Under the pieces are notes generated by a model, which was not told where the DNA came from, ran no database searches, and saw only the letters and a program-made list of their open reading frames with translations. Below, in pieces: positions 3,535 through 20,084 of a stretch of DNA of 64,000 bases. Position 1 is the stretch's first letter. Every line of letters starts with the position of its first letter. The stretch lies in assembly GCA_012813795.1 (NCBI GenBank), contig GCA_012813795.1_4087.1. One strand, given 5' to 3'. The stretch is from a phage. The position numbers and the translations under genes were made by a program.

Positions 3535-3541
3535 AAAACCT

Positions 3542-5131: not shown

Positions 5132-5181
5132 ATATATTCTCCAAAAGAAAAGGAGAGTCAATATGACTCTCCATGTTTATA

Positions 5182-5643
5182 TTATTCAAGATACTTAAGT
5201 TTATATAAAGTACCCTCAATGAAACTCATTATATCTTCAAGGGTATTAGTACTACCATAGTCTTCTGCTTCTTCAAGCATAGCATGAACGTACTTACATT
5301 GTTCACAGTATTCTTCAAGAATAGGAATACACTGTTCAATTGGTGTGAACTTATAACTGTGTCCAGTGCCAATTTGTAAAGCACCACGAGTGTTCATAAT
5401 TCCTTCAATGAACGCATCGACATATTCTGGTAACTCTTTATACAACTCATCTAATTGTAGATGTTTTGTGTAGTGTTTACTTTGTAAATGCCAGCTATGT
5501 GCAATTGCTGGTAGTATAATGCTGTTTTCAATAAATGTCAATAGTACTTCATCATAAGCACTGTCTTCTTCAGTACAGCCAATGAAGTCCATAACATGTC
5601 GCAAGTCGTTAATATTTTCCATAAAATCTCTCCAGGGAGTCAT
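5182..5643 (-). CDS. hypothetical protein
   Basis: 153-aa track ORF. Confidence 0.55.
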   Translation of the reverse strand: MTPWRDFMENINDLRHVMDFIGCTEEDSAYDEVLLTFIENSIILPAIAHSWHLQSKHYTKHLQLDELYKELPEYVDAFIEGIMNTRGALQIGTGHSYKFTPIEQCIPILEEYCEQCKYVHAMLEEAEDYGSTNTLEDIMSFIEGTLYKLKYLE

Positions 5644-5654
5644 TCTATGTCTAT

Positions 5655-6071
5655 TTATTTGATCAGAAATGTAAATTCGGGATTCATATCTCTTATTACT
5701 GAATTACGTCTTCTATCCCATACAACTTTACTAAAATACTCGGAGTCATCACATACTATCAGTATACAATTCCTAAGAGAACTCGTTGTGTAAGTACTTA
5801 AATCATTTTCTGTAATGAAATGAACATTCCAGTTGACTTGTACTGGATAATCTCGTTTAAAAAACAAAACTACTATAGGTCTTTCAGTACTCAATGCATT
5901 AATAAATTCGATTACACTATCATAGATTTCAGTACGGATATTATTGGTTTTTATTGTACTTATGTAATTCTGTTTAATTCCGTGCTCTTCATTGATTTGA
6001 TACTCAAAAAACTTTTTAAACAATTCTTTGGTTAAATCAGATGAATTTTTAATATTCGTTGCGTTACTCAT
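5655..6071 (-). CDS. hypothetical protein
   Basis: 138-aa track ORF. Confidence 0.5.
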   Translation of the reverse strand: MSNATNIKNSSDLTKELFKKFFEYQINEEHGIKQNYISTIKTNNIRTEIYDSVIEFINALSTERPIVVLFFKRDYPVQVNWNVHFITENDLSTYTTSSLRNCILIVCDDSEYFSKVVWDRRRNSVIRDMNPEFTFLIK

Positions 6072-6791
6072 TCACTTCGTTCTCTCGTAACTCAAGAATT
6101 CGTTTCGTTATCTACGATAACTCACTCATTCATATTAATTAATATTGTATTGTACTTTTAAAGATTGACGGGATTTGTTGAGGACATTTTCATCCCCCCG
6201 CAGGGGAATGATATTAAAAAAGAACCAATGAAGGTTCTTGATTTTGACGCTGATGGCATCGGAATTTATCGAATTGCGAATTTCTCCATATTTTGGACGG
6301 TTCAAGGGTGTCCAATTTTTGGAGAACGAAAGCGGGTTGCTCTGTTTCTCTCTATCGCAGTCATATGCAACGGTCGCAGGTATTTTCATCCCCTGCACTA
6401 AAGTACTGGAACTATTCGATCAATTCAGTACTCGTTTTACTCAATTTTTGGGTGCAACTTTCCCGTAGAAAAATTGACCGCTTGTTTTAAGTAAAACTCC
6501 CTTAGCAAATCTGGTAAGGTGCGATCCTTATACATCTATCGAGGAACTCTCTGTATGCTTATCGGAGTTCTTTATTGAGCCGTGTCGCCGTGTGATCCGT
6601 GTCTTATTTCGCGTTTGTATGAATGCACTTGGATGGTACTAACGGGTTTCTTTTGCTCATCGCCTCAGTGGGAAGGCTCATCTATCCTTTACATTTTCAA
6701 GAGAAGTAGGTTCTTCTTGTCCGTTGTTAAAACGTCCACTGACATTTTCCATTACAATATAATTATAGCACAATATAAAGTATTGTCCCAA
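6072..6791 (-). other. non-coding, GC-richer island; candidate structured RNA or regulatory region
   Basis: About 720 bp with no convincing ORF in a genome that is otherwise densely coding; short overlapping ORFs in several frames; minus-strand -10-like TATAAT near 6762-6767; duplicated TTTTCATCCCC, CCGTGT x3, several hairpins; closed by a minus-strand terminator near 6220. Confidence 0.35.
6214..6239 (-). terminator. intrinsic terminator (minus strand)
   Basis: Stem AAGAACC/GGTTCTT with 6-nt loop, followed on the minus strand by a T-run. Confidence 0.5.
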
Positions 6792-7205
6792 TTACATATA
6801 AACTTTTTTCAATTCTTTGCTGCTTCGTTCAAATACTGTTTCAATGAACTCAATATCCTGAAGAAGCTGTAGAGTACTGGCATCTGTCTCATTGCGTGAC
6901 ACATTTCTGTACTTTTGTTCAGGGTGATTGAATACCACCTTGACTACACTATTTAGGTCTACAAAATTTGACGTTTTTTTCGTATAGGAAGCCTGAAGCT
7001 TAATATACTTCCCATTATCTTGTAGATTAGTTTTATGAATTAGTTCTTCAATACCTGTAAGATGTAAATAACTATCTTCTTCTTTGACGAATGTAATAGT
7101 CAACAGTACTGTCTTTTCGTCTCCCATGTCAGAGATATTTTTCACAGCACTAACAATTTCCAAGTTTGAAAAATCTAAATCTTTAAGCATTACACATATT
7201 TCCAC
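6792..7205 (-). CDS. hypothetical protein
   Basis: 137-aa track ORF. Confidence 0.5.
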   Translation of the reverse strand: MEICVMLKDLDFSNLEIVSAVKNISDMGDEKTVLLTITFVKEEDSYLHLTGIEELIHKTNLQDNGKYIKLQASYTKKTSNFVDLNSVVKVVFNHPEQKYRNVSRNETDASTLQLLQDIEFIETVFERSSKELKKVYM

Positions 7206-7546
7206 AAAGTTCTATAAGTGATAATTTCTTCTCTGGTAACAGAAACTTCATTGCACTTAACACCATCCGTTTCATACTCGAATGGTCGTTGTGGTCGATA
7301 TTCTGTTAAACCTCGTTCATACGTACAATGATAATACTTGTTCTCGTTTATGTCAAGAAAAACAAGATCAAATTCTTCAGTAAATCGTCTATGCCCTTTA
7401 CTTTCATTGCAAATGATTTTGTACTGCACATCTGGACCAAAGGTTTCAGTACTGTCATCCCATGCACCATAGTCAGTATACAAATCATCTTCATCTAACT
7501 CTGCAAGATGCCACATTAACTGTGGTAAAAAGATTTTTGATTTCAT
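7190..7546 (-). CDS. hypothetical protein
   Basis: 118-aa track ORF; ATG at 7544-7546. Confidence 0.5.
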   Translation of the reverse strand: MKSKIFLPQLMWHLAELDEDDLYTDYGAWDDSTETFGPDVQYKIICNESKGHRRFTEEFDLVFLDINENKYYHCTYERGLTEYRPQRPFEYETDGVKCNEVSVTREEIITYRTLWKYV

Positions 7547-7560
7547 TTATTTTCTCCATT

Positions 7561-7586
7561 AAAAAAGGACTTGATTTCTCAAGTCC
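7561..7586 (-). terminator. intrinsic terminator (minus strand)
   Basis: Stem GGACTTGA/TCAAGTCC with 4-nt loop, followed on the minus strand by T6. Confidence 0.5.
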
Positions 7587-7599
7587 CTATTATAACATA

Positions 7600-8211
7600 T
7601 TACTCATGTTTATCCAACAGCTTTTGTGCCTTTTTTAATGCTTTCATGTGTCGCCCGTACTCACGAACATGCCACAGATGATCGTTATCCCATAGCTCTT
7701 GACGCAATTTACGTTCTTCGATCATTTCTGGTGTAGGACGTTTACTTTCCTTCTCAATCTTATTGAAATAACGATTCATATGTTCTTCAAGTAGATTTAG
7801 GTTTTTGACTTTCTCAAGGAATTCATCAACCGTTTCAGTTTTATTTGAACGCATTTGGTTGCATCTTGAGCACATTGTATTAAAGTTGGACTCCAAATCA
7901 GCACCACCTTTAGATGCAAGATGATTATGATCTACAGTCATCATAACTTCATAAAGACCACATACTGCATACACATTTAAATGCGGTTTACCATATACCG
8001 GATCACTACAGTTAGAACGTTCGATTCGAACTTCTGTAGCCTCGATGCCACAAGCAATGCACTTACAATTCTTAACGAATGTTAGTACTTTTTGTGGAAA
8101 GTATCTGAAAGTAATACCATTATAAGTATAACGTTTCATTTTGGTACTAGTATGATTGAGTTCATCTAGTAAACTCAATTTGGTTACATAATAAACATGA
8201 TATTTAGACAT
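7600..8211 (-). CDS. HNH endonuclease (free-standing homing-endonuclease-like)
   Basis: 203 aa; HNH signature DHNH...N...CSRCNQ plus upstream Cys pairs. Confidence 0.65.
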   Translation of the reverse strand: MSKYHVYYVTKLSLLDELNHTSTKMKRYTYNGITFRYFPQKVLTFVKNCKCIACGIEATEVRIERSNCSDPVYGKPHLNVYAVCGLYEVMMTVDHNHLASKGGADLESNFNTMCSRCNQMRSNKTETVDEFLEKVKNLNLLEEHMNRYFNKIEKESKRPTPEMIEERKLRQELWDNDHLWHVREYGRHMKALKKAQKLLDKHE

Positions 8212-8212
8212 A

Positions 8213-8527
8213 CTATTCCTTAACTTTTATGTTAACACGAATATTTTGGTCTTGGAGTTTGCGAATTGTATCAATTAGTGCATCATATCTCAGTGCACAT
8301 TCATTGTATATGGAATCCCAACGCGTCAGAACGTTAAGAATTTCATCACCAGCATATCCTCTATTACCATGTGAGTCAACAACAATTTTTTTAGGAATTG
8401 GTGTATCTTCTTCGCATCGTTCTAATAAGATTTCCTGGGTGATTATTGGTGACGCTTGAACTGGAACCTTATTAGAACACCCAGTGATAAACATAAAAGT
8501 AATCAAGAATGTTAATATGTATTTCAT
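8213..8527 (-). CDS. o-spanin-like outer-membrane lipoprotein
   Basis: 104 aa; signal peptide with lipobox FITGC; immediately downstream of the i-spanin-like gene with 4-nt overlap. Confidence 0.6.
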   Translation of the reverse strand: MKYILTFLITFMFITGCSNKVPVQASPIITQEILLERCEEDTPIPKKIVVDSHGNRGYAGDEILNVLTRWDSIYNECALRYDALIDTIRKLQDQNIRVNIKVKE

Positions 8528-8898
8528 TTAAATTTCTCTCTAGCTGCAAGTGAATTTTGTTTTAGATCATTCAAAAGTTTTACCCCTTCTTCATCTAAAC
8601 ATACATTTCTATAAACTTCACGCTCAATAATAACTGGTACTTTAGTTTCTATTACCTTTGCATTATTTTGCATTATATGTTTAGTTTCTACATAGTTTTT
8701 GGTATTTTGGCTTTCAATTTTACTTAAAGCCGCATCTACTTTCTTCTCTATTTTTAATTCAATACTTTCTTTATACCCAGTATAAAAAGTATTAGCCTTC
8801 CAGCCACCAAAAGTACATGATGCCATCAGGAGAACAAACGCAATTGGTTTCCAGAACGGTATCAGTACTTTTGAAACAATAATATCTAGTACACTCAT
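8524..8898 (-). CDS. i-spanin-like protein
   Basis: 124 aa; N-terminal TM anchor followed by a charged helical region; paired with the downstream lipoprotein. Confidence 0.55.
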   Translation of the reverse strand: MSVLDIIVSKVLIPFWKPIAFVLLMASCTFGGWKANTFYTGYKESIELKIEKKVDAALSKIESQNTKNYVETKHIMQNNAKVIETKVPVIIEREVYRNVCLDEEGVKLLNDLKQNSLAAREKFK

Positions 8899-8943
8899 AA
8901 TAATATCTCCTATAGATGATGATATTATTTAGAGTGCTGAAAA

Positions 8944-9369
8944 TTAGCGTTTATCGATCATTGTTTGTACATGTTCTACGAGATGTACGATTCTGGAATC
9001 ACCTGATTCATACTTATCTTCGATCTCAACCTTAAATTCATCTTCAAGTTCCATGATCATTTCTACCCAGTCCAGTGAATCAAATTTGAATTTTTCTTCA
9101 ATTTCTAAGGAGGTTAAATGTAAATTCATCAGTACATCTGCCTCTGATACATCACCATAACGTCCAGAAATGAATTTTGCAATTGCTTTCTCAACGTCAG
9201 TTGGTCCACGTGTACGGTATTCTGGTTCAAGGAACCATTCACCCTTATTGATAGCTTCTAATTCTAGTTTAATTTCATGCATTACTTTATAACGATCAGT
9301 ACTTTTATGGATGCGGCTAACTTCGCGATTCAGTACACGTAGTGCATCAATAATTGTTGAATTCAGCAT
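8944..9369 (-). CDS. acyl-carrier-protein-like domain protein
   Basis: 141 aa; C-terminal ~85 aa resembles ACP, including the phosphopantetheine-site motif DSLDWVEMIMELEDEF (compare DSLDTVELVMALEEEF). Confidence 0.6.
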   Translation of the reverse strand: MLNSTIIDALRVLNREVSRIHKSTDRYKVMHEIKLELEAINKGEWFLEPEYRTRGPTDVEKAIAKFISGRYGDVSEADVLMNLHLTSLEIEEKFKFDSLDWVEMIMELEDEFKVEIEDKYESGDSRIVHLVEHVQTMIDKR

Positions 9370-9378
9370 ATAATCCTC

Positions 9379-10620
9379 TTATTTTTTACCATACCACTGC
9401 ATTTCTCGAATATCGATTAGAACTTTTGCAGCTAGTTGAATGTTTGGTTTCTTTGGTAGAACTGACTTAGGATACACCACATTGCGGATATAGTCAACCT
9501 TTTCATTGAAATAATCCATGACTTCTTCATATTTCCATTTGCCGTTGCGGATATCCATTAGCATATCAGCATCAGGACGTTTAACAAGGATAATACCGCT
9601 TTGTAATGCTTCTTCGGCACTATTTAGCAGCCTGATCGTATGCATAGCATGTTTTAAATCGAAGCCGTGCTGTGATTCCATAAGAGCACGTTTAGCATTA
9701 CGATTCTCTTTCCATTTGTGATAACTTTTACGGTTCTCACTGTTCTCACTGTATTCTTTTTCATTGAATTTGACAATGAGTTCAGGTCGCACTTTCAATT
9801 CTTCAGTACTGCGTTCTTTGTTGAAATAACGTAAAGAACCATCAGCGTTAATTGTACTTTCATTAGGATTGATAATAACACCAAAGATATTTTCACCGTA
9901 ATGAATTAATTCGTACCCATTGTTATAATCCAATAAGTTGAAATCACGGTCTAGTACTTTATCAGTACTGTAATTATGTACTAAACGTACAAAATGATAC
10001 TGTTTCAACGGATGAGTTGAAACTAACTGCAATGAAGTATCACGCATGTATTTTTCAAAATCAATTTTCTTAGCATTAAATGGATGTAGTTTAGAAGTAT
10101 CTAAACGTTCTACCAAATAGTGTGGGAAATTTTCATACATCCATGCTAAAGTTTCATCTACTGGAAAATCTTCTAAGATTTCATTTAGACGTTTTTCAGC
10201 AATACGCTCTTTATCCATCCACCCGTGGTGATTAGACATACGCTTAACCTGATTATATGCATAACCGGTATAAGAGAATGCAATCTTAGAACTAAGTAAT
10301 TGTTGATTGAATGTACGTAGATAATCATAGATTTCAGTACTTTCTACGATGTGTTCAGGATCGACCCATAGTGATTCAAGAATATTTGGGTTAGCCTCTG
10401 TATATAGTCTTAAGTACTGGTTTAGTTCATAGAATTTAGTATCTTCTTCTCTTGAATCAGAAACTTCCTTTACATTATAAAAAGGCGTAAGGATGAATTC
10501 TTTGTTAGCAAGAAAAATACCACGATAATCCGTATCACTTTCAGGTGTACTGGTTCCATACGCTTGTGAACCTGCTAAGTGCTTCACAATTGTTTGTTCA
10601 AGAAATTTGTTATTATTCAT
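9379..10620 (-). CDS. Pol-beta-superfamily nucleotidyltransferase (RlaP-like)
   Basis: 413 aa; N-terminal HLAGSQAYG...SDTDYRGIF matches the GS...[DE]x[DE] nucleotidyltransferase signature. Confidence 0.5.
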   Translation of the reverse strand: MNNNKFLEQTIVKHLAGSQAYGTSTPESDTDYRGIFLANKEFILTPFYNVKEVSDSREEDTKFYELNQYLRLYTEANPNILESLWVDPEHIVESTEIYDYLRTFNQQLLSSKIAFSYTGYAYNQVKRMSNHHGWMDKERIAEKRLNEILEDFPVDETLAWMYENFPHYLVERLDTSKLHPFNAKKIDFEKYMRDTSLQLVSTHPLKQYHFVRLVHNYSTDKVLDRDFNLLDYNNGYELIHYGENIFGVIINPNESTINADGSLRYFNKERSTEELKVRPELIVKFNEKEYSENSENRKSYHKWKENRNAKRALMESQHGFDLKHAMHTIRLLNSAEEALQSGIILVKRPDADMLMDIRNGKWKYEEVMDYFNEKVDYIRNVVYPKSVLPKKPNIQLAAKVLIDIREMQWYGKK

Positions 10621-11018
10621 AGATGTAATGTTAGCTCCTTAAGAAACCCATTATAGTACTTCATGAAATCTTTATGAAGAACTTTGTATTCTGATAAACT
10701 AAAACCTAGATTGATTATAGTATCTTCTTGAAAGAACTTTTCTTCTTCGGATAAATCCAGAGAAATAGATTGTTTGCCACCATTTAATATTTTAGTAAAG
10801 TGTAAACCATCATTATTGATTTCAACGTACATGAAGTTATTTTCACGGTCACGAGGGCAAACAATATTAATGGAACTTTCACCAGTATCATCGTATTCGA
10901 ATGATATTACATCATACTCCCCGATTCCATAAAATTGTTTATCACTCTTGTAACCACTATATACTTTTTTATACGAATCCATCTGTCTTATGGTGCTATA
11001 CACATCATCAAGATCCAT
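10617..11018 (-). CDS. hypothetical protein
   Basis: 133-aa track ORF. Confidence 0.5.
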   Translation of the reverse strand: MDLDDVYSTIRQMDSYKKVYSGYKSDKQFYGIGEYDVISFEYDDTGESSINIVCPRDRENNFMYVEINNDGLHFTKILNGGKQSISLDLSEEEKFFQEDTIINLGFSLSEYKVLHKDFMKYYNGFLKELTLHL

Positions 11019-11021
11019 ATA

Positions 11022-11525
11022 TTAACTCCTGTAATATTGTAAGTATTCGTTCTTTGCATCATCCAATTCTTTTTGTTCCTGAATTTTCTTGTCGATATCT
11101 TTCACGTTAGTAATACTGTTATATAGTGCGTGAAGTACAAGAAAATCAGATACAGAAGTTGAAAAATCCTTCCACCCACCCGACATTTTAATACGCACAC
11201 GTATATCACGTCTGTCCATCCAGAACATGAACCCTCGATTCCCACGTAAATCATTAATCATATACACTTTAAAACAAGAATCTCGTGTGCTGCTTTCTCG
11301 TCTTTCAAAATCTACATGAATACTGAACAAGTTTTTTGAACAGTACTTACAAAATGCATAGATAACAGGATCACATTTTGAAAGAAGATATTTGTTTTGA
11401 ATAATTTCTCTGCGATCTTTGTCTGATTTAATATTAGGTACTAATAAAGTACTTTTGTTTAAAATCAACGCAACTAAGTACTGAAGAATATCATTATCTT
11501 TTACTTTATGTTTACCGAAGATCAT
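11022..11525 (-). CDS. hypothetical protein, tandem paralog 3 of 3
   Basis: 167 aa; shares the L...S.L......D.DR..I..K..LS motif block with the two upstream genes. Confidence 0.55.
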   Translation of the reverse strand: MIFGKHKVKDNDILQYLVALILNKSTLLVPNIKSDKDRREIIQNKYLLSKCDPVIYAFCKYCSKNLFSIHVDFERRESSTRDSCFKVYMINDLRGNRGFMFWMDRRDIRVRIKMSGGWKDFSTSVSDFLVLHALYNSITNVKDIDKKIQEQKELDDAKNEYLQYYRS

Positions 11526-12025
11526 TAGTATAATCCTTTTAGTTTATTAAATTCATTAAGTTTATGCTGCTCGTATTCTAACTTCTTGTACTTTGTTTCA
11601 AGCTCACGAAGTGCAACGAGTAAATGAAACAAAAACATTTGTTCATGTTTAGGTAGAATATTCGCATCTCCGTTAATATAAACAAATGTATGTTTTTCAT
11701 CATAATCTTTAGATGAATATGTTACTGCATTAAAATCAACCTTAGTTTCGGTATCAAACAATTTTACACGGTTGATATGATTACCATATATGAATACTGG
11801 TTCATATAACCAACGTTCACCGTATGGTTCTTTAACTAGGTCAGTGATTAGTTTCATTAGAGAATGAGAACTTAACATTTCTTTAATTTTAAGTATAGTT
11901 CTACGATCTTCATCAGTACTGATAATTTCTTTTAAAGAATAGCTTTTCATCAGTACTGGAAGAATTAATGTACACCACTCTACATTTTCTCTTTTGTGAT
12001 CATTATTTTTCTTTTTGAAAAACAT
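11525..12025 (-). CDS. hypothetical protein, tandem paralog 2 of 3
   Basis: 166 aa; paralogous to 12035..12595 and 11022..11525. Confidence 0.55.
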   Translation of the reverse strand: MFFKKKNNDHKRENVEWCTLILPVLMKSYSLKEIISTDEDRRTILKIKEMLSSHSLMKLITDLVKEPYGERWLYEPVFIYGNHINRVKLFDTETKVDFNAVTYSSKDYDEKHTFVYINGDANILPKHEQMFLFHLLVALRELETKYKKLEYEQHKLNEFNKLKGLY

Positions 12026-12034
12026 AGTAACCTC

Positions 12035-12595
12035 TTAATATAAATCAGTTATTCTCTTTTGGATTTTGAATTTACGCTGTTCTTCTTCAATTTGTGATAA
12101 CTTTTCTTTAATATCTTCAGCACCAATAATCACATGGAACAGGATCATTAACTCATCATCATCAAGCATATCATAATGAACACCGAAGTTTGAAGAAACA
12201 ACACATGACAAATCTCTTGATTGAATGATAGTTTCTTCGGTTCTGTGTTCAATCCCTGCTGGTGTATACTCAACCTTAAACATGATTGCATTTTTTAAAT
12301 CGCGTAGTATGAATTCTTCATCACCACCCCACAGTTTTTTTTGAACCATAGACCAACGATCACTGAATGGATTTTGGGTGTATTCTGCCAGTAATCCATA
12401 TAGTTTATGCTTACTTAACTTGTACTTAAGTTCGATAAGTGATTTACGATCATTATCGGTTTTCACAAAATCTTTAAGAGTTACACTTTTGCATAGCAAA
12501 CGAACTACTAGTGTATTCTGAAAGTGCTGCTCTTTTTCTTTTAAACGTTGTAACTGTGCGGGTGACAGTGGTGGTCTAAAACGTGATTGTACCAT
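12035..12595 (-). CDS. hypothetical protein, tandem paralog 1 of 3
   Basis: 186 aa; paralogous block around KSVTLKDFVKTDNDRKSLIELKYKLSKHKL. Confidence 0.55.
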   Translation of the reverse strand: MVQSRFRPPLSPAQLQRLKEKEQHFQNTLVVRLLCKSVTLKDFVKTDNDRKSLIELKYKLSKHKLYGLLAEYTQNPFSDRWSMVQKKLWGGDEEFILRDLKNAIMFKVEYTPAGIEHRTEETIIQSRDLSCVVSSNFGVHYDMLDDDELMILFHVIIGAEDIKEKLSQIEEEQRKFKIQKRITDLY

Positions 12596-12635
12596 AGATT
12601 CCTCCTAGTTTTTTAGCATTATACAGATAAAAGAA

Positions 12636-12657
12636 AAGCCTGTCAATAGACAGGCTT
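12636..12657 (-). terminator. intrinsic terminator (bidirectional hairpin) after the fiber locus
   Basis: Stem AAGCCTGTC/GACAGGCTT with 4-nt loop, T-rich on both sides; immediately after the stop of 12664..15405. Confidence 0.5.
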
Positions 12658-12663
12658 AATTTT

Positions 12664-15405
12664 TTAACTCCAACGAGTACCAGATTGTGATGGTAACCCA
12701 GAACTAGCTGGGATAGCAGAACCACGATTGTAGGTACTTGGGCGGTATAGCAAGAATCTGGACACTTTTTCAGACTCGATTGATGCAATACCATTAGCAT
12801 CAGTTACTATCTTACCAATGTAGGTTGATGTCATAGTTTCTGATAATTGATATAGTGATATCTGATACGAAGCTGTAGATGTACCTCTATCCATAACCGC
12901 ATATATGTAGAATGTTGAATTATCTGGTGTAGTACTTATGGTAGATAAGTCTATCATAGTCGGTGGTATCTTTGCAAACTTTCCACCCAAGAAAACTGGT
13001 ACTTCTTGTGAAAAGTACACGTTGAACCCTTGTGCCACATCCTGTGAAGCAACAACTAAGTACTGTGATATCGTTTCATTACCAGATATTAGTTTATCCA
13101 TATCTGCTTCAGTAGTACCACATACAGCAAAAACTGATTTAGTTTGATAATCGTTTTTGTTCATTTGGTAATATCCAAACCCAATCCCTGGAATTGTACC
13201 TATATCAAATTGTGCGTTTGAAATATAAGTTGTTTCCATATATCGTTGACTTGAAATAATACCATTTTTCACTTTAGCAATCATGTTAGGATAACGAGTC
13301 CATCCTGGGGTATCAATGCCATATAAAATGTTCACACCTAAGTAGTTAAAACCACTAAACTTAGCAACCGTCATACCAGCCCAACGTTTGATCATTTCAT
13401 TTGGTGAAATTTGGAATGTATTCGTGATTGATGTATATCTTGCTGTATCAACACTAATACCACGTAAAATTATAGTACCACTTGTACCCAGTGCACTACA
13501 TGATATTTCGGAAAAAATAATATAACACACGTTGGTAGTACCGTTTAGTGCAGAAGTGACTGCAATAGATTTAGAATATGTAGTATCAGGTACATAATAA
13601 AAAACAGTTTTATGTTCAGTTATTCCAGTCAATCCAGCTTTAGCAACGGCATTATAACCTATACCTGATAATGTAGTTCCTGAAATTTCATATCTATCAC
13701 TGTTAAAGTCCATTGTAACAGGGTCGAATTTTCCATAAGCTGGTTTATCGATACCTTCTATTAAAGAAGATCCATAAGTGCTGACATTTCCATTGGCATC
13801 AACCAATGTTACCATACCTGCATATTTGTAATCAGTACTTAAATAGTGTCTATTACCTGATGGTGCAAAACCATTCATTGTGGTATTTTGTTCCAAGTTT
13901 TTATAACTATAAGTTGGATTCTCACCTATTTCAGTAAAAACTGTACTATCATAACCATAAGAAATTCCATCAGCAGTACCAGAACATGCAACAAGTATCT
14001 TACGTTTATCAACGAAACGAACACCTATTAAGTTTTCACCTACAGGTGAACCATAAACGGGCATTACTTCTACGCGTTTTAAATTACTACCAGTACGTGT
14101 TTTAGCAACCCAACTATCATAAGGTGTACCAGAAACTTTGTATGTTTGTACTGCATAGGTCGGCATGGATGACCATCTTGCTTTGGTAGTGAAAACAAAA
14201 CCATCAGAAGTTTGACAGATTGAACCATAGTTACCAAGTGCACCATCATAAAACCCTGTAAAGTTTTCCATATTGATTGAAAACGGGTTTCTCACTGTTA
14301 TACTGCCAGTTGATGCATTAGCTGATACTCTGATTGGACCACGTTCAGAACCGTCAAGTGTCATTGTTTTAGTACTGATATCATATGTAAAGCTAATGCC
14401 AAGTGAATATACACTAGATGTTTTTGTTTCAGTAAAGACACGAAACCCTGGATATATCGCTACTCTTATTTTTGTACCATCAGGGCTAAGAACTGCTTGG
14501 GTATTAAACGTGTAATGTTGCCAGTCATCGATTTTGGAAACCCCATTATCATATGCTATTAGTGCATCACCACCTGAACCCAATACTGAATAGCTATCAT
14601 AAACGCGAATATTATTTGAAGCTGAATATGTTACATCTCGTATAGTTCTTCCTGAATAACCACTAATTTGTGTTACTGTCGAAACTGAACCAGTATTAAA
14701 TGCAGTTAAAGGTACTGTGTATATGATAAATGCACAACCGCGAACACTATTAAGAACACTTGAATCCCTACACCATATATAAACTGAATCATTTACGATG
14801 TGTGCATAGATTGGTTTATTTGTTATTGCTGTTTTTGGAATTCTACAGTGTTTATGAGCAGATTCATTTAATGTTTCATTTGTTAATGTAAGGTAGTATG
14901 ATGCTCTATCAGTTGATTCCCAAAATAGTAATTCATATGCATTTGACCCATAAAATTCATAAATGTAATCAGTGCTTGGTAGCACAGAAGGTCTATACAT
15001 CGTGTTGGTTGTAATTATATTATCTTGAGTTAGTGTTTCTATATCTCTTATATTTTTAATATAAGCATAATAGTAACCATACGAACTTCCATTTGTACCT
15101 GCACGTAAAATTACACCAGTACCATCATTTTCAATGATACAAGGTTGCATTATTTTTGCAAATGAAAAGGAAGAAGCACCTTCAAATGTACCGTTAATAC
15201 TCATCGGTAGGTAATCTTGATCACCTACCCTTGAAACTGGAAGCATATCAAACATCTGATCTACTTCCGCTTTGTCATAATATTGGTAAGTGATTTTACC
15301 AGCAGAATCAGCAGGGAATCCATTAAAGGAACGTAATGCATACTTTCCATTAATTTTCAAATTCCCTAGTATTTCTGCGTTTCCTATAATTCGTCTCGAA
15401 GCCAT
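12664..15405 (-). CDS. tail-fiber-like large structural protein (paralog B)
   Basis: 913 aa from the ATG with AAGGA RBS (track ORF extends to 15432); S/T/G/N/Y-rich; N- and C-terminal similarity to 16017..18716; ends ...SSGLPSQSGTRWS. Confidence 0.6.
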   Translation of the reverse strand: MASRRIIGNAEILGNLKINGKYALRSFNGFPADSAGKITYQYYDKAEVDQMFDMLPVSRVGDQDYLPMSINGTFEGASSFSFAKIMQPCIIENDGTGVILRAGTNGSSYGYYYAYIKNIRDIETLTQDNIITTNTMYRPSVLPSTDYIYEFYGSNAYELLFWESTDRASYYLTLTNETLNESAHKHCRIPKTAITNKPIYAHIVNDSVYIWCRDSSVLNSVRGCAFIIYTVPLTAFNTGSVSTVTQISGYSGRTIRDVTYSASNNIRVYDSYSVLGSGGDALIAYDNGVSKIDDWQHYTFNTQAVLSPDGTKIRVAIYPGFRVFTETKTSSVYSLGISFTYDISTKTMTLDGSERGPIRVSANASTGSITVRNPFSINMENFTGFYDGALGNYGSICQTSDGFVFTTKARWSSMPTYAVQTYKVSGTPYDSWVAKTRTGSNLKRVEVMPVYGSPVGENLIGVRFVDKRKILVACSGTADGISYGYDSTVFTEIGENPTYSYKNLEQNTTMNGFAPSGNRHYLSTDYKYAGMVTLVDANGNVSTYGSSLIEGIDKPAYGKFDPVTMDFNSDRYEISGTTLSGIGYNAVAKAGLTGITEHKTVFYYVPDTTYSKSIAVTSALNGTTNVCYIIFSEISCSALGTSGTIILRGISVDTARYTSITNTFQISPNEMIKRWAGMTVAKFSGFNYLGVNILYGIDTPGWTRYPNMIAKVKNGIISSQRYMETTYISNAQFDIGTIPGIGFGYYQMNKNDYQTKSVFAVCGTTEADMDKLISGNETISQYLVVASQDVAQGFNVYFSQEVPVFLGGKFAKIPPTMIDLSTISTTPDNSTFYIYAVMDRGTSTASYQISLYQLSETMTSTYIGKIVTDANGIASIESEKVSRFLLYRPSTYNRGSAIPASSGLPSQSGTRWS

Positions 15406-15415
15406 ATATATTCCT

Positions 15416-16006
15416 TTACCATTCTGTCCCACTATTCACATCTGGTGTACCAGAACTGATAGGGATAGCTGAACCAATTTTTGTAGCACTTACTCTGAAG
15501 TCGTCAAATCTTGACACTTTATTTATACTGACCCCTGTAATGCCATCTGGGAAAACTGTCATTTGTCCTATGTACATATTAACATTACTTTCAGGGCGTT
15601 GAGTTTTAGAAATGATGTAGTCAGCTACCCCAACATCTAATATAACATATACATAATGTGTTTCAATATTAGTTCCAGTAACGCCTGGGTCCGTTATTGT
15701 TTTAGCAGGGAGGGTATAAACCGCTCCCGCCATGAACAATGGTAATTCTTTACTGAAAGTTAATTTGAACCCAGCAGCAGTAATACCTAATGGTTCAGTA
15801 CTGTAAAGTGAACCAAATTGTGATAACGGAAAGGAACTGGTAATGTAATTCACATCATCTGTACTCATGAGTGGTACATCAACATTCCCATTAGCATCAG
15901 CTTGATACACATTACCAGAACGATCAGTTATCGTGGTCCCAGTATTTTTTCCTTGTGATTTAACGGAAGCATACGCTTCCACATCAGATCTAAATTTATA
16001 AGCCAT
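15416..16006 (-). CDS. short protein carrying the fiber C-terminal domain
   Basis: 196 aa; C-terminal ~120 aa alignable with the C-termini of both large fiber-like proteins; ends ...SSGTPDVNSGTEW. Confidence 0.55.
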   Translation of the reverse strand: MAYKFRSDVEAYASVKSQGKNTGTTITDRSGNVYQADANGNVDVPLMSTDDVNYITSSFPLSQFGSLYSTEPLGITAAGFKLTFSKELPLFMAGAVYTLPAKTITDPGVTGTNIETHYVYVILDVGVADYIISKTQRPESNVNMYIGQMTVFPDGITGVSINKVSRFDDFRVSATKIGSAIPISSGTPDVNSGTEW

Positions 16007-16016
16007 ATTATCTCCA

Positions 16017-18716
16017 TTACCAATTCACATTACCAGAACTTGAAGGGAACCCAGAACTAACTGGGAAGGAACTTCCGGCAGCGTCGAATGATGAACCAAA
16101 CAGGTCTAAACGCGAACGTTTTTCTATATTAATTTCGGTTATTTGTAAATCATCAGTTTTCACTGTACCAATCCAGTATATTGAATGAGTTTCAGCTAAT
16201 TCAGTTGTTGATATGTGATAGTTTGCAATACCCTGTACTAATTTAATATACACATAAAATGTAGTATTGGCAGGATTTGCTTTCACAGTTGTTAAATCTA
16301 TATTTGATATTGGTAATTTATAGTGTTTACCTGATAGCAGTACTGGTGTCTCTTCGGTGAAGTATATAATAAAACCTTGAGCAACATCTTGGGAAACAAG
16401 ACATATAAATGGATTTCCTTTATCAGTCCATGCATTATAATCCGCTAATGTAGTACCATATGTTCTAAAAATTGTTTTGTTTGTATTATCTATACTTTGA
16501 AGAATACCAAACCCAATATTAGGTAAAGCGAATGGTTGACCATCTAATGCATAGATAGGACGTGCACCAGCTATATGGAAATTATTAAATTGGGCTGTCG
16601 CTTTATCCACTGTAGCACGGAAAAATGGAGAGTTTGTATTACCAACTGTATTAAAGAAACCTGGAATACCACCACCAATGAAGTAGAAAGAACCAGCATC
16701 ATATATAGTAATACCAATACTTCCACTATCAAGATGATATGCGGTATCTGTTTTGTAATCCCCAGCTTGAACACTTTCATGTACTAAACGTTTGAACGAC
16801 CATGTTGTAATATCACCAGTTCTTGTATTGACATTCAATTCAACAACTCGTACATATAAACCACGGGCTGTAGTAGATGCTGCAAGAACACCAAAAACAG
16901 GAATATCAGTTTGTTGTGGAACAAATACAGATAATGTTTTTATTGATTCTGGTGATATATTCCATGAACTAGCAACTTTAGCAAATTCGGAATTTCGAAT
17001 AGCATTCATTATATCTTGAGACATACTGATTGTACCATTATTCAGTACATTACCTTTATAATCAAAACTAATAGGAGTTGATGTTCTATTATCTGCCACC
17101 AAAACACCACCATTAGTAGTGACCGTTGAACCAGAAATTGAACTTATAAAAATTCTAGATTCTGGTGTAGTTATAAACGCTCGGTCTGGTGTTGGTTCAT
17201 AACCAGGAACAGTACCATAGTCTAGAGACTTAAATGTAAAGTTCGGTGTAGCTTTATGTACAGCATAGGATGGATAAAAACGACCATCACCAGAACGTCT
17301 TGAATATTGTTTAGTACTGTTATTTGGTAATAACTCTACACCTACTTGGTATGAACCAACTGCTGAACCAAATCTTGGTGATACTACACCATTAATAAAA
17401 TTAGTTGCTGATACACTTCTAACATTCATTAAATTAAACAATGACTGTGGTGGATATTTCGCATATGATAAGTTCAATGCTTCTGCGAGGTTTGGTGAGA
17501 ATGAACAAAATGCATCACCAGTTGATGGTACATAGCAATAATTACTAAAAATATTACGACCACCCGCGTGAAGATAAAATGGATCTTTTGTTATGCATTG
17601 ACCCGTTACATTCATACTTGAACCCGTGTCATTAACAGCAACTGGTGTAGTCGTTAACATATTATCTAATTTACATTGTTTTGTCACAACATCAAAAGTC
17701 ATACTAAAACCATGTTGTGGGCGTGTGTCATATCGTCCATTTGTCATCCACATATCACCACATAATCTAAATCTGAATTCGGATGTACCAGATTTCTGTG
17801 CAACATATAAATCTGGATCTGTCATATAAACACCAAACCCAATAATACCACTTGGAATTAAAACGTATGGATTATCATTGGTATTTGTTGAATTTATTTT
17901 CATAGTTGGAACAATATTGTCATCATATACCATTGCATTATAAAAAGTTCTTGTGGCCCAACCAGTAATTCTAGTAACACTATAAGTACCACCACCTGGG
18001 TTATTACTTGGACTAAAAGTAACTTTAGTAACGGATATTTTAAGAGTATTGCTTGGTGTATCTAAACTGAAAAAGTATAATGAACCATCTTCAGCACGAA
18101 TAACAAATTGTATTGCACCAAAAGGTTGTACGGCTGTATGGTCTGATAGAATAATACCAGTGTGCATTGTATCATTCATAGTACCATTATTGACTGAAAC
18201 AAAAACTCTATCAATATATGTACCATCAGAATTTTCAGTTCTCACCAAACCACAAGTAATATCATCACTGCTTGGATACAAATAAACTGCATACCCAGCA
18301 CCAAAATAATTTGGTTTATATGCACGAGTAGTATTAACCATACGACTTGTATTTGTTGTACCAACCGCCTGGGTCATATAACTATAATAAATCCCCTGTG
18401 TACTTCCATTAGTACCCGGACGTAACATTACTAAAGTGTTATCATCTTCCAAAAATAATTTTGTATTTCTGGAACTAGCATTTTCTGAAGAACCAACTGT
18501 TGTACCATTGACACCAGCAGGTAGATAGTTTTGTGTACCATAACGAGAAATGGGTAACATACCAACCATTTCCAGCATATCATCTTGTGTATATGCATCT
18601 ATTGTGAGATTGCCATTTTCATCAAATACGTTATCATTGATGCTCTGAACACTTCTCTTACCTTTGACTGTTACATTATGTGTAACATCAATGCCACCAT
18701 ATATTTTCTTTGCCAT
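16017..18716 (-). CDS. tail-fiber-like large structural protein (paralog A)
   Basis: 899 aa; N-terminal LPISRYGTQNYLP block and C-terminal SQDVAQGF...SSGFPSSSGNVNW shared with paralog B; ATG with AAGGGA RBS; late-promoter-like box upstream. Confidence 0.6.
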   Translation of the reverse strand: MAKKIYGGIDVTHNVTVKGKRSVQSINDNVFDENGNLTIDAYTQDDMLEMVGMLPISRYGTQNYLPAGVNGTTVGSSENASSRNTKLFLEDDNTLVMLRPGTNGSTQGIYYSYMTQAVGTTNTSRMVNTTRAYKPNYFGAGYAVYLYPSSDDITCGLVRTENSDGTYIDRVFVSVNNGTMNDTMHTGIILSDHTAVQPFGAIQFVIRAEDGSLYFFSLDTPSNTLKISVTKVTFSPSNNPGGGTYSVTRITGWATRTFYNAMVYDDNIVPTMKINSTNTNDNPYVLIPSGIIGFGVYMTDPDLYVAQKSGTSEFRFRLCGDMWMTNGRYDTRPQHGFSMTFDVVTKQCKLDNMLTTTPVAVNDTGSSMNVTGQCITKDPFYLHAGGRNIFSNYCYVPSTGDAFCSFSPNLAEALNLSYAKYPPQSLFNLMNVRSVSATNFINGVVSPRFGSAVGSYQVGVELLPNNSTKQYSRRSGDGRFYPSYAVHKATPNFTFKSLDYGTVPGYEPTPDRAFITTPESRIFISSISGSTVTTNGGVLVADNRTSTPISFDYKGNVLNNGTISMSQDIMNAIRNSEFAKVASSWNISPESIKTLSVFVPQQTDIPVFGVLAASTTARGLYVRVVELNVNTRTGDITTWSFKRLVHESVQAGDYKTDTAYHLDSGSIGITIYDAGSFYFIGGGIPGFFNTVGNTNSPFFRATVDKATAQFNNFHIAGARPIYALDGQPFALPNIGFGILQSIDNTNKTIFRTYGTTLADYNAWTDKGNPFICLVSQDVAQGFIIYFTEETPVLLSGKHYKLPISNIDLTTVKANPANTTFYVYIKLVQGIANYHISTTELAETHSIYWIGTVKTDDLQITEINIEKRSRLDLFGSSFDAAGSSFPVSSGFPSSSGNVNW

Positions 18717-18747
18717 ATATATCCCTTTTATCTAGATATCCATAGTG

Positions 18748-18755
18748 TATTTATA
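18748..18755 (-). promoter_or_regulatory. T4-type late promoter box TATAAATA (minus strand)
   Basis: Exact TATAAATA on the minus strand about 32 nt upstream of the fiber-A ATG, directly after a terminator. Confidence 0.4.
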
Positions 18756-18761
18756 ATAGTA

Positions 18762-18786
18762 TAAAAAAAGCACCCAAAGGGTGCTT
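18762..18786 (-). terminator. intrinsic terminator (minus strand)
   Basis: Stem AAGCACCC/GGGTGCTT with 3-nt loop, followed on the minus strand by T5-6. Confidence 0.55.
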
Positions 18787-18793
18787 CTTCATA

Positions 18794-18952
18794 TTAACCG
18801 CCGTGTTTAGAAAATTCAACTGCTCTTAATTGTTTAAGTGCTTCTTTTCTGGTTGGGTGACGACCGAGAACTTTCTTCCCTGTGTGGTCAGTAACAACCC
18901 ACTCATTTCCACGTTTCTGTATCTTTTCCGAAATAATATCAAGATAACGCAT
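18794..18952 (-). CDS. small basic protein (52 aa)
   Basis: Below track cutoff; MRYLDIISEKIQKRGNEWVVTDHTGKKVLGRHPTRKEALKQLRAVEFSKHGG; overlaps the nrdG 3' end by 14 nt; followed by the terminator. Confidence 0.4.
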   Translation of the reverse strand: MRYLDIISEKIQKRGNEWVVTDHTGKKVLGRHPTRKEALKQLRAVEFSKHGG

Positions 18953-19418
18953 AATCTACTCCTTTACGAAGAATACGTTGATTATTAGAGCCTCTAAATG
19001 GTAATTCTAAATTCTTTTCTTCAAGAATAAATTTACCATCAACTAATACATCAATGTACTCTAGTATTGCGGAGGCATGATTATTTATTATTTCCTCTAA
19101 AGTATAACCACTCCAGCACCAAATATCTTTATTTGGATATTTTTCTTTTACTACTTTACATAACTCAACAACAGTACTGATATTCTTTGGCATCAATGGA
19201 TCACCACCAAGAAGTGACAACCCTTGTACATATGGCTTGTTAAGTTCATTCAGGATGATATCAACTGTTTCAGTACTGAATTCTGAACCACTGCGATAAT
19301 CCCATGCTTTTTCGTTGAAGCATTCTTCACATCCGTGGCTACACCCTGAAACAAAAAGGGAGCATCTAACTCCCTCTCCATTGACTAAATCATCCTTGAT
19401 TATCGTCTGGTAATTCAT
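18939..19418 (-). CDS. nrdG: anaerobic ribonucleotide reductase activating protein (radical SAM)
   Basis: 159 aa; radical-SAM C-x3-C-x2-C cluster (CSHGCEEC) near the N-terminus; adjacent to nrdD. Confidence 0.85.
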   Translation of the reverse strand: MNYQTIIKDDLVNGEGVRCSLFVSGCSHGCEECFNEKAWDYRSGSEFSTETVDIILNELNKPYVQGLSLLGGDPLMPKNISTVVELCKVVKEKYPNKDIWCWSGYTLEEIINNHASAILEYIDVLVDGKFILEEKNLELPFRGSNNQRILRKGVDYALS

Positions 19419-19725
19419 CTAATATTGCACTCACTATTTCAACAAGAACATCTCCGTGACATGATTTGGGCTTACAAAAGCACCCAAGACGCTTCCCAGC
19501 CAATTCAAGTAGTTCTTCGATAGTAACCTCACCATTATCAATTCTTTGGATAAGATACTCTCTGAACTTCTCAATCGACTCTTCTCGTGTCGGAACTATA
19601 AACTCTGCCTTTGTTTGTTTGTCATTAATGTGGGTAAATGGATTTCCCCATTTAGACCCACGACCAATATACACATCATATGGTTCTTTATATTTGTTAA
19701 CTACAATTGGTTTTAAGTCCATCAT
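19390..19725 (-). CDS. conserved small phage protein (DUF4326-like)
   Basis: 111 aa; motifs [12 protein letters not shown] and [13 protein letters not shown]; inserted between nrdG and the GrcA-like gene. Confidence 0.45.
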
Positions 19726-20084
19726 AGACCTTTAGTAAAAGTACGATTGATTACATCATCTTGTTGTTCTTTTGTTAGTGAATTGAAACGAACTGCATAA
19801 CCACTAACACGAATTGTAAGTTGCGGATACTTTTCTGGATTATTTTGTGCATCAATGAGTTGTTCTTTAGATAGAACATTTACATTCAAGTGCTGACCAC
19901 CTTCAATATTCGGTGCGTGTTGAATTTCCACATCACGCAGTACCTCACCATCAAAAGTACTCAAAAGTACTTCATCATCTTCGGAAATGGTCTTTGATAC
20001 AATAATACGTGCAATATCATTTTCTATTAGCATGATAGTTCCACGGTGCTCACCAGACATGACTTGTTTACCTTGAATTGACAT
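19722..20084 (-). CDS. autonomous glycyl-radical cofactor (GrcA/YfiD-like, T4 Y06I-type)
   Basis: 120 aa; C-terminus [11 protein letters not shown]...[20 protein letters not shown]...Q.DVI.RTFT is near-identical to the glycyl-radical domain of GrcA. Confidence 0.85.

What the first reader, a model, noticed from the sequence alone, without database searches (positions are those of the whole stretch)
12636..18755. Late-promoter-driven fiber locus: two large paralogs plus a short gene sharing their C-terminal module
An exact TATAAATA box on the minus strand precedes two ~900-aa S/T/G/N-rich paralogs and an interposed 196-aa gene, all ending in a homologous ~120-aa C-terminal domain, and a terminator follows. 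Duplicated receptor-binding proteins with exchangeable distal modules suggest alternative or expanded host-range determinants. The short gene could be a module donor or an adhesin tip.
Basis: partly seen in the sequence, partly recalled or inferred. Interest (0 to 1): 0.6.

Follow-up and report, generated by a model that had tools for sequence, protein, structure and literature searches.

The report
Late operon of three fibre-like virion paralogs
A jumbo coliphage carries a late-expressed three-gene block for related virion proteins, two large and one "body-less" miniature, that share both ends; the shared C-terminal piece looks like a docking domain, not an exchangeable receptor-binding tip.

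Summary
On the minus strand lie a terminator hairpin, TATAAATA (18748-18755), three tightly packed genes (899, 196 and 913 aa) and a second terminator (12636-12657). The large proteins are full-length paralogs (26% identity, E 1e-53). All three share a ~120-aa C-terminus (35-39% identity by BLASTP).

The window is an Asteriusvirus-like jumbo coliphage (96.5% to phage A4). Homologs were found by mass spectrometry in phAPEC6 and GAP32 virions.

- The C-terminal module is the most conserved part, not an exchangeable one.
- Its predicted fold matches the "shoulder" domain shared by lactococcal phage RBPs, SPP1 gp22 and TssK, which docks those RBPs and TssK to the baseplate.
- Variation and recombination patches lie in the central beta-propeller body (aa ~150-450).
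- The 196-aa protein also shares the N-terminal 65 aa (hhalign 99%, E 3e-18). It is a conserved mini-paralog lacking the ~700-aa body, not a module donor or tip adhesin.
- The module occurs in 546 protein clusters, in two main size classes, almost always at the extreme C-terminus.

Best reading: accessory tail or baseplate adhesins with common docking ends. This is a new variant of a known kind, of moderate interest.

The parts
18768..18786 (-). Terminator-like hairpin (AAGCACCC-TTT-GGGTGCTT followed by a T-run on the minus strand). It ends the upstream nrdG/52-aa-ORF unit and lies just before the late box.
   Evidence: Sequence read. The stem was found by the scan. The hairpin is invariant in A4, phAPEC6, CBB and Yen9-03.
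18747..18755 (-). T4-type late-promoter-like box, TATAAATA (ATAAATACA invariant core). 31 nt lie between the box and the ATG of the first gene.
   Evidence: The box is conserved at the same position in five phages of three genera. An ATAAATA late motif and a gp55-like sigma factor are reported for the related phage CBB (PMC5259590).
16017..18716 (-). Gene 1: 899-aa virion protein, the large paralog that is more variable among close relatives.
   Evidence: ORF. PHROG 3573, E 2e-196. The phAPEC6 ortholog gp323c was detected by MS. AF2 model has pLDDT 81 and is all-beta.
18522..18716 (-). N-terminal adaptor segment of gene 1 (aa 1-65, ending in the motif LPxSxxG). It is shared by all three proteins and has low confidence in the monomer model.
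   Evidence: Alignments. hhalign probability 99%, E 3e-18. pLDDT is below 50 for residues 1-21 and 41-76.
16437..18464 (-). Central body of gene 1 (aa ~85-760), with a predicted beta-propeller-like fold. aa ~150-450 is the variable, mosaic part.
16020..16424 (-). C-terminal shared module of gene 1. It comprises a shoulder-like beta-sandwich (aa ~765-866) and a conserved G/S/P-rich tail ending in Trp (aa 867-899).
15416..16006 (-). Gene 2: 196-aa mini-paralog. It consists of the N-terminal adaptor (aa 1-65) joined directly to the C-terminal module (aa 72-196), with no central body.
   Evidence: PHROG 26864, E 4e-44. In the AF2 model the core aa 72-163 has pLDDT ~85. A widespread short class has the same architecture.
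12664..15405 (-). Gene 3: 913-aa large paralog. Its ATG at 15405 has the Shine-Dalgarno sequence AAGGAA. N-terminal adaptor at 15223-15405; C-terminal module at about 12667-13068.
   Evidence: The same start is used in A4 and in NCBI records. PHROG 3573, E 1e-204.
12636..12657 (-). Intrinsic-terminator-like hairpin that closes the operon. Its loop and 3' arm contain the -35 TTGACA of a perfect sigma-70 promoter (12646..12618) for the next, unrelated gene set.
   Evidence: terminator and 12/12 promoter match. Sequence. The same terminator/promoter overlap follows the array in Yen9-03.

Best explanation
The locus is one late transcription unit: terminator, ATAAATACA late box, three genes with their own ribosome-binding sites, terminator. 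It sits inside an early/middle gene region of an Asteriusvirus-like jumbo myophage.

It encodes three paralogous minor virion proteins built on one plan:
- a conserved ~65-aa extended N-terminal adaptor ending in LPxSxxG;
- an optional ~700-aa beta-propeller-like body;
- a conserved ~95-aa C-terminal beta-sandwich with the fold of the shoulder domain shared by p2/1358-type RBPs, SPP1 gp22 and TssK;
- a conserved G/S/P-rich tail that ends in Trp.

Shown here: the operon anatomy, the paralogy, the shared ends, the conservation pattern, and virion presence of homologs.

Inferred:
- The conserved ends are the oligomerisation and docking elements that fix all three proteins to equivalent sites on the tail or baseplate periphery, or to each other.
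- The variable, recombination-prone propeller body of the two large proteins is the surface that contacts the host, most likely binding glycans.
- The 196-aa protein is a body-less adaptor, cap or spacer that uses the same docking ends.
For: - Operon anatomy and its conservation across three genera.
- A late ATAAATA motif and a gp55-like sigma factor in the related phage CBB: PMC5259590.
- Paralogy: E 1e-53; shared C-termini; shared N-termini, hhalign 99%, E 3e-18.
- Virion association: phAPEC6 gp323c, 4 peptides; GAP32 homologs of CBB_148 and CBB_149 detected by MS.
- Body: beta-propeller lectin and glycosidase folds.
- Conservation: both ends are the most conserved and aa 150-400 the least.
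- Recombination: mosaic patches of high dS occur only in the body.
- Spread: 546 clusters, two main size classes, with the module at the extreme C-terminus.
- Tail-fibre links: some short members have gp37-like or tail-fibre N-termini.
- In EL and Ea35-70 the family sits next to baseplate genes.
- RaK2 lacks the family and has its tail-spike cluster at the same locus.
Against: - No protein of this family has been located in a virion map, and no receptor or glycan binding has been shown.
- The MS evidence is for homologs at 40-52% identity, with few peptides, and covers only the large paralogs. The short one has never been looked for.
- In p2 RBP and TssK the shoulder domain is N-terminal. Here it is C-terminal, so the docking analogy may not transfer.
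- The oligomeric state is untested.
- The late promoter is inferred from motif, position and conservation only.
Confidence: 0.55

Rival explanations
1. The two large proteins are alternative receptor-binding tail fibres whose C-terminal ~120 aa is the exchangeable receptor-binding tip. The short protein supplies or donates that tip, or acts as a tip adhesin or chaperone like T2/T4 gp38 or Tfa.
For: The C-terminal position matches where most tail fibres bind receptors. A short gene sits next to fibre genes, as with Tfa or gp38. The module's fold is found in RBPs and tail fibres.
Against: - The module is the most conserved part of the proteins.
- It is conserved, down to its last residue, across Rak2-like and phiKZ-like phages that infect different hosts.
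- It shows background divergence between close relatives, whereas the body is mosaic.
- The fold matches the shoulder domain rather than a receptor-binding head domain.
- The short protein also carries the N-terminal adaptor.
Confidence: 0.08
2. Plug-and-socket chain model. Each protein has a socket (a trimer of shoulder-like C-modules) and a plug (the extended N-terminal adaptor or the Trp-ended tail). The three proteins would then dock head-to-tail or branch on one another into heteromeric appendages, with the 196-aa protein as a link or terminator. This could account for part of the 'hairy' appendages seen on phAPEC6/CBB-type virions.
For: - Both termini are conserved, and both are predicted disordered or extended in the monomer.
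- p2/1358 RBP shoulders and TssK bind an inserted extension of a partner protein.
- Tandem arrays of 2-3 paralogs are the rule.
- A comparable head-to-tail model was proposed for DUF7941 proteins in Goslar.
- The proteins responsible for the hairs of phAPEC6 and CBB are unidentified.
Against: No multimer prediction or experiment was available. GAP32 has the array but is not reported as hairy. MS abundance is low. CBB and Yen9-03 have no short member.
Confidence: 0.12
3. Virion-borne enzymes. The propeller bodies are glycoside hydrolases or lyases (depolymerases) rather than lectin-like adhesins.
Confidence: 0.12
4. Structural proteins unrelated to host recognition, for example neck, collar or capsid decoration, or baseplate scaffolding. 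Under this reading the variability is neutral.
For: The only direct data are low-coverage MS hits in whole virions. phAPEC6 has unassigned decoration densities on the collar, tail and capsid.
Against: The module has a tail-fibre-type fold and some members have tail-fibre N-termini. The family neighbours baseplate genes in phiKZ-like phages. The mosaic recombination confined to the body is typical of host-contact proteins.
Confidence: 0.13

Closest known systems
Shoulder domain of lactococcal phage p2/1358 receptor-binding proteins, SPP1 gp22 and T6SS TssK
   Different: There is no sequence similarity. The domain is at the C-terminus here instead of the N-terminus, and is followed by a conserved Trp-ended tail. 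It is attached to a beta-propeller body instead of a neck and head. The hosts are Gram-negative bacteria and the phage is a jumbo myophage.
phiKZ gp131-family peripheral fibres (gp131/133/134/135 hetero-hexamers)
   Same: Both are sets of tandem paralogs in a jumbo phage that share an attachment module and differ in the rest. One phiKZ member has a beta-propeller thought to contact the host (PMC13250141). Relatives of the present family lie in the baseplate gene clusters of phiKZ-like phages EL and Ea35-70.
   Different: In phiKZ the shared module is N-terminal and helical-bundle forming. Here both ends are shared and the C-module is a beta-sandwich. No sequence match to any PDB chain was found for the 899-aa protein, and only a chance-level one (E 0.2) for the 913-aa protein. 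Homology of the N-terminal domains was not tested directly.
T4 late promoters (TATAAATA, gp55-dependent)
   Same: There is an exact TATAAATA with no -35 element, a short distance upstream of a structural gene. The related phage CBB encodes a gp55-like sigma factor and uses ATAAATA before its structural genes.
   Different: The conserved core here is ATAAATACA. No transcript mapping exists for this phage group. gp33 and gp45 homologs were not found in CBB.
RaK2/K64-1 multi-tailspike adsorption cluster (ORF525-534)
   Same: It occupies the same genomic position, directly beyond nrdD-nrdG and the small ORF. The two gene sets are mutually exclusive among CBB, GAP32 and RaK2.
   Different: The RaK2 cluster is on the opposite strand. 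Its proteins are unrelated, being beta-helix spike and depolymerase types. The RaK2 proteins are experimentally tied to adsorption, whereas the present family is not.
Goslar DUF7941 'fibre cloud' proteins
   Same: It is a paralog family of jumbo-phage virion proteins that occurs with and without extra domains. It has disordered linkers and a proposed head-to-tail assembly.
   Different: It is a different fold and family: there is no Pfam DUF7941 match here. DUF7941 is reported as restricted to chimalliviruses and is very abundant in virions, unlike gp323c.

Membership tests
T4-type late promoter | Exact or near-exact TATAAATA at -10, with no -35 element required | tested here: met
   TATAAATA at 18748-18755 on the minus strand.
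T4-type late promoter | Placed shortly upstream of a late (structural) gene, and conserved in relatives | tested here: met
   31 nt lie between the box and the ATG. The ATAAATACA core is invariant at the same place in A4, phAPEC6, CBB and Yen9-03. Homologs of the genes are virion proteins.
T4-type late promoter | The phage encodes a gp55-type late sigma factor, and the transcript 5' end maps just downstream of the box late in infection | not testable with these tools
   A gp55-like protein is reported for the related phage CBB only. No transcript data exist, and gp55 was not searched for in this window.
Intrinsic terminator | G+C-rich hairpin followed by a T-run at the end of the unit | tested here: met
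   12636-12657: 9-bp stem, 5 G-C pairs, tail TTCTTTTATC. An analogous element follows the array in Yen9-03.
Phage tail fibre / receptor-binding protein | Component of the virion | tested here: inconclusive
   Homologs of the large paralogs were detected by MS in phAPEC6 (4 peptides) and GAP32. There are no data for this phage or for the 196-aa protein, whose gene is unannotated in phAPEC6.
Phage tail fibre / receptor-binding protein | Elongated fibrous or beta-helical trimeric shaft | tested here: not met
   The AF2 monomer is made of globular all-beta domains with propeller-type matches. The oligomeric state was not modelled.
Phage tail fibre / receptor-binding protein | N-terminal anchor related to known fibre N-termini | tested here: inconclusive
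   Some short family members match tail-fibre or gp37-type PHROGs at their N-termini. The window proteins themselves match only PHROGs of unknown function.
Phage tail fibre / receptor-binding protein | Variable receptor-binding part at the C-terminal (distal) end | tested here: not met
   The C-terminus is the most conserved part and variability is central.
p2-type RBP / TssK shoulder domain | Beta-sandwich fold superimposable on the shoulder domain | tested here: met
p2-type RBP / TssK shoulder domain | N-terminal position, followed by a neck and a head domain | tested here: not met
   The module is at the extreme C-terminus in nearly all of the 150 best hits listed.
p2-type RBP / TssK shoulder domain | Trimer whose cavity binds an extension of a baseplate partner | not testable with these tools
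   No multimer modelling was available. The property of the known family is taken from the literature.
Peptidase S74 intramolecular chaperone (C-terminal auto-cleaved fibre chaperone) | Pfam Peptidase_S74 match at the C-terminus | tested here: not met
   No Pfam family at E <= 1 for the proteins or for the module alignment. The predicted fold is a beta-sandwich.
DUF7941 chimallivirus fibre proteins | Pfam DUF7941 match | tested here: not met
   No Pfam hit. The family is also present in non-chimalliviruses.
phiKZ gp131 fibre family | Sequence similarity to the gp131 propeller or N-terminal domain | tested here: inconclusive
   No PDB chain sequence matches the 899-aa protein at E <= 1, and only a chance-level one matches the 913-aa protein. 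That the gp131 C-domain structure is in the PDB rests on my own knowledge, not on a check made here. No direct profile comparison with gp131-135 was made.

The most novel reading that the evidence does not exclude
The family is a self-docking 'plug-and-socket' building set. The shoulder-like C-module trimer of one protein would capture the conserved N-terminal adaptor, or the Trp-ended tail, of another. Large (propeller-bearing) and short (body-less) paralogs would then assemble into heteromeric chains or branches on the tail. That would be a previously undescribed way of building accessory appendages in jumbo phages, and a candidate for part of the unexplained 'hairs' of phAPEC6/CBB-type virions.
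Probability: 0.12. Interest if true: 0.75.

Novelty: new variant of a known kind. Interest (0 to 1): 0.42.

Why it matters
Jumbo phages of the Rak2/121Q group are being considered for therapy, yet most of their virion proteins, and the proteins that set their host range, are unassigned. This locus defines the anatomy of a widespread family of jumbo-phage virion proteins. The family comprises 546 clusters at 50% identity and spans Rak2-like and phiKZ-like phages. It is so far annotated only as 'hypothetical', 'structural' or 'minor tail protein'.

The analysis shows which part is likely the conserved attachment element (both termini) and which part is the variable, recombining surface (the propeller body, aa ~150-450). 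That gives concrete targets for host-range engineering and for fitting unassigned densities in baseplate and tail cryo-EM maps. It also corrects the intuitive but wrong assumption that the shared C-terminus is the receptor-binding tip.

Tried and rejected
- Pfam, NCBIfam and PDB-sequence searches with the proteins and with a profile of the C-module found nothing usable.
- Pfam scans of family members in which the module is internal, or which carry extra regions, found no known domains.
- The word-indexed homology search with the 196-aa protein reached only close relatives. The exhaustive HMM search was needed to go further.
- The second exact TATAAATA (15520-15527) was considered as an internal promoter for gene 3. 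I rejected it because it is coding sequence for the conserved I-N-K-V-S-R motif and is not conserved in phAPEC6.
- The GTG start at 15432 (922 aa) was rejected in favour of the ATG at 15405.
- A DUF7941 relationship and an S74 chaperone relationship were considered and not supported.
- I looked for positive selection in the variable region. dN/dS is below 0.5 everywhere, and the signal is recombination (high dS), not adaptive substitution.
- CBB's own MS did not detect CBB_147-149. The 'structural protein' label there comes from the GAP32 MS data.
- XaC1 has the family (two short members plus one large) but lacks the ATAAATA box.
Full report
**Where the window comes from.** The region 12000-19800 is 96.5% identical to Escherichia phage A4 (355 kb, Asteriusvirus) and 90.7% identical to phage ph0011. 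More distant matches go to 121Q-, PBECO4- and RaK2-type jumbo myophages. The three proteins occur, residue for residue, on a 357,761-bp contig deposited as E. coli, and every source names them 'hypothetical protein'. The locus lies just beyond nrdD-nrdG and a 52-aa ORF.

**Checking the observation.** On the minus strand the order is as follows.
- A hairpin plus T-run at 18768-18786.
- TATAAATA at 18748-18755.
- The ATG at 18716 of an 899-aa gene.
- Seven nucleotides containing GGAG, then a 196-aa gene (15416-16006).
- A spacer of ten nucleotides (AGGAATATAT), whose AAGGAA Shine-Dalgarno sequence overlaps the stop codon, then a 913-aa gene (ATG 15405, stop 12664).
- A terminator hairpin at 12636-12657.

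These features are seen. The listed 922-aa ORF starts at a GTG that overlaps the preceding gene. The ATG at 15405 is the start used in the A4 record and in NCBI records.

The two large proteins align over their whole length at 26% identity, E 1e-53. The three C-termini match at 35-39% identity by BLASTP, E 1e-16 to 3e-20, with 36 invariant columns. S+T+G+N make up 35-36% of each protein.

**The promoter-like box.** TATAAATA is depleted in the window: 2 copies against 11.6 expected. Its mere presence is therefore not the argument. Its context is.
- The same terminator hairpin, an invariant ATAAATACA, and a similar spacing to the start codon precede the first gene of the homologous array in A4, phAPEC6, CBB (Mimasvirus) and Yersinia phage fHe-Yen9-03 (Eneladusvirus).
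- The CBB paper independently derived ATAAATA as the motif upstream of structural genes and reported a gp55-like sigma factor (PMC5259590).
- The other exact copy (15520-15527) encodes the conserved I-N-K motif and is not conserved in phAPEC6.
- The closing terminator contains the -35 element of a perfect sigma-70 promoter for the next genes. The same overlap follows the array in Yen9-03.

The locus is thus a self-contained late-type unit inside a region of nucleotide-metabolism genes and small genes.

**Are the products virion proteins?** phAPEC6 gp323c, the ortholog of the 899-aa protein (about 52% identity), was found in purified virions with 4 unique peptides and 5.6% coverage (PMC7247149). 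In CBB, GAP32 and Yen9-03 the array consists of three large paralogs. The GAP32 homologs of CBB_148 and CBB_149 were detected by MS in GAP32 virions, whereas CBB's own MS did not detect them. The phAPEC6 record leaves the 195-aa and 939-aa ORFs unannotated, so its proteomics could not have reported them.

**What the proteins look like.** No Pfam, NCBIfam or usable PDB-sequence match exists. PHROGs places them in families of unknown function: 3573, 26864 and 7449.

An AF2 model of the 899-aa protein, built on 26 sequences, has pLDDT 81 and pTM 0.75. It is all-beta. Confidence is low only for residues 1-76 and 866-899.

- HFTV1 tail fibre gp42, including the baseplate-resolved fragment

According to the literature, what p2 RBP, 1358 RBP, SPP1 gp22 and TssK have in common is the 'shoulder' beta-sandwich. 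In p2/1358 RBPs and TssK it is the domain whose trimer clamps an extension of a baseplate partner: Dit in p2 and 1358, TssG in the T6SS (PMC7291167 and PMC6300606). The shared module therefore resembles a docking domain, not a receptor-binding head. This is a fold-level resemblance only. A profile of the module finds nothing in the PDB or Pfam, and here the domain is C-terminal rather than N-terminal.

**The short protein is a mini-paralog.** BLASTP already hinted that residues 1-129 of the 196-aa protein align with the N-terminus of the 899-aa protein. The multiple alignments show the same. A profile of short-family N-termini aligns with residues 2-61 of the large family at 99% probability, E 3e-18. 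The 196-aa protein is therefore the N-terminal adaptor (ending in LPxSxxG) joined directly to the C-module, without the ~700-aa body.

This class is old and widespread, not a local deletion product. An exhaustive HMM search of 1.84 billion representative proteins with the module profile finds 546 proteins at E <= 1e-3.
- They fall into two main size classes, about 190-250 aa and about 880-1170 aa.
- The module is almost always at the extreme C-terminus.
- Short members from other lineages keep the same N-terminal motif.
- Some short members carry N-termini that match PHROGs annotated as tail fibre or as gp37-like distal fibre subunit.

The module, including its terminal GSxIPVSSGxPxxxGxxxW motif, is conserved in phiKZ-like phages. 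Examples are EL gp114 and gp115 and Ea35-70 gp018 and gp019, encoded beside baseplate genes.

**Which part varies.** Across orthologs and paralogs, residues 1-100 and 751-899 are the most conserved. Residues 151-400 are the least conserved, even among relatives at ~90% identity. Codon-level comparison with A4 shows patches with dS of 0.5-1.3 within aa 150-450 of the 899-aa protein, and a smaller patch at aa 251-300 of the 913-aa protein. Background dS is 0.03-0.1, and dN/dS is below 0.5 throughout. The C-module is at background. The exchangeable element is therefore the central body, through recombination, and not the C-terminus.

**Genomic context in relatives.** RaK2 has no member of this family. 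It carries its tail-fibre and tail-spike cluster, ORF525-534, at the same position next to nrdG, on the other strand. This is circumstantial support for a role in host interaction.

**Most likely mechanism.** The following is shown: the operon anatomy, the paralogy, the shared ends, the conservation pattern, and virion presence of homologs. The rest is inferred.
- The three proteins use their common N-terminal adaptor and shoulder-like C-module (plus the Trp-ended tail) to oligomerise and dock at equivalent sites on the tail or baseplate periphery, or on each other.
- The propeller bodies of the two large paralogs provide two different, recombining host-contact surfaces, most likely binding glycans.
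- The short protein is a body-less adaptor, cap or spacer.

I give this about 0.55. The rivals are:
- a plug-and-socket chain or branch assembly (about 0.12);
- enzymatic propellers (about 0.12);
- a decoration or scaffold role unrelated to host recognition (about 0.13).

**Comparison with known systems.** The nearest structural analogue of the module is the shoulder domain of p2/1358 RBPs, SPP1 gp22 and TssK. The nearest organisational analogue is the phiKZ gp131 family, in which tandem paralogs share an attachment domain, form hetero-hexameric peripheral fibres and include a beta-propeller (PMC13250141). Neither is a family match. The position of the shoulder domain is reversed, no sequence link exists, and in phiKZ the shared domain is N-terminal and helical. 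The Goslar DUF7941 proteins are a conceptual parallel for paralogs with and without extra domains and for head-to-tail assembly, but they belong to a different family.

**Verdict.** The finding is a new variant of a known kind: a tail-fibre-like accessory virion protein set with an unusual 'both ends conserved, body optional' architecture and a C-terminal shoulder-like domain. Interest is moderate. The family is widespread and uncharacterised, and the analysis gives clear experimental handles, but nothing here overturns current ideas.

Noticed in passing
window ~9349-9380: Homology with phage A4 is interrupted here. A4 carries about 3.6 kb more, encoding A4_503 'putative tail fiber' and A4_504 'tail protein I'. 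phAPEC6 has its MS-detected 105-kDa fibre gp314c at this position. Nothing similar to the ~3.4 kb of that extra DNA held in L001 exists anywhere in the 64-kb window.
   Followed up: partly
window 12618-12657 (minus strand): The terminator hairpin that closes the operon contains the -35 TTGACA of a perfect 12/12 sigma-70 promoter (TTGACA-17-TATAAT) for the next genes. The same terminator/promoter overlap follows the homologous array in Yersinia phage fHe-Yen9-03.
   Followed up: partly
window 11022-12595 (minus strand): The three genes just downstream (186, 166 and 167 aa) are themselves tandem paralogs of unknown function (PHROGs 18641 and 7868), served by the consensus sigma-70 promoter.
   Followed up: partly
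window 33900-43644 (plus strand): Four large tandem genes (1095, 839, 541 and 733 aa) encode Ig-domain structural proteins. A CATAAATA (ATAAATA core) lies at 33728-33735, upstream of the first. The CBB protein whose GAP32 homolog is called 'Ig domain-containing protein' is an MS-detected 'major tail protein'. These genes could be candidates for the hair-like appendages of this phage group.
   Followed up: no
whole window: TATAAATA is strongly under-represented: 2 copies against 11.6 +/- 3.5 expected from shuffles, and every shuffle had at least 2. This is consistent with avoidance of a functional signal.
   Followed up: partly
L002 (phAPEC6 MK817115) 2853-6186: The phAPEC6 record leaves a 195-aa ORF and a 939-aa ORF unannotated. 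They are the homologs of the 196-aa and 913-aa genes. The published virion proteome could therefore not have reported them.
   Followed up: yes
window 16020-16118, 15419-15517, 12667-12765 (C-terminal tails): All three proteins end in a G/S/P-rich tail, GSxIPxSSGxPxxxGxxxW, whose final Trp is the last or next-to-last residue. The tail is conserved in family members from Rak2-like and phiKZ-like phages and has low confidence in the monomer models. Its role is unexplained.
   Followed up: partly
L006 (RaK2 NC_019526) 1-11968: In RaK2 the position beyond nrdG is occupied, on the opposite strand, by the tail-fibre and tail-spike cluster ORF525-530 and onward. The 899/196/913 family is absent from RaK2.
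   Followed up: partly
L007 (Xanthomonas phage XaC1) 3188-7100: XaC1 has the reverse arrangement: two short members (190 and 194 aa) followed by one large member (911 aa, annotated 'structural protein'). It has no ATAAATA box upstream.
   Followed up: no
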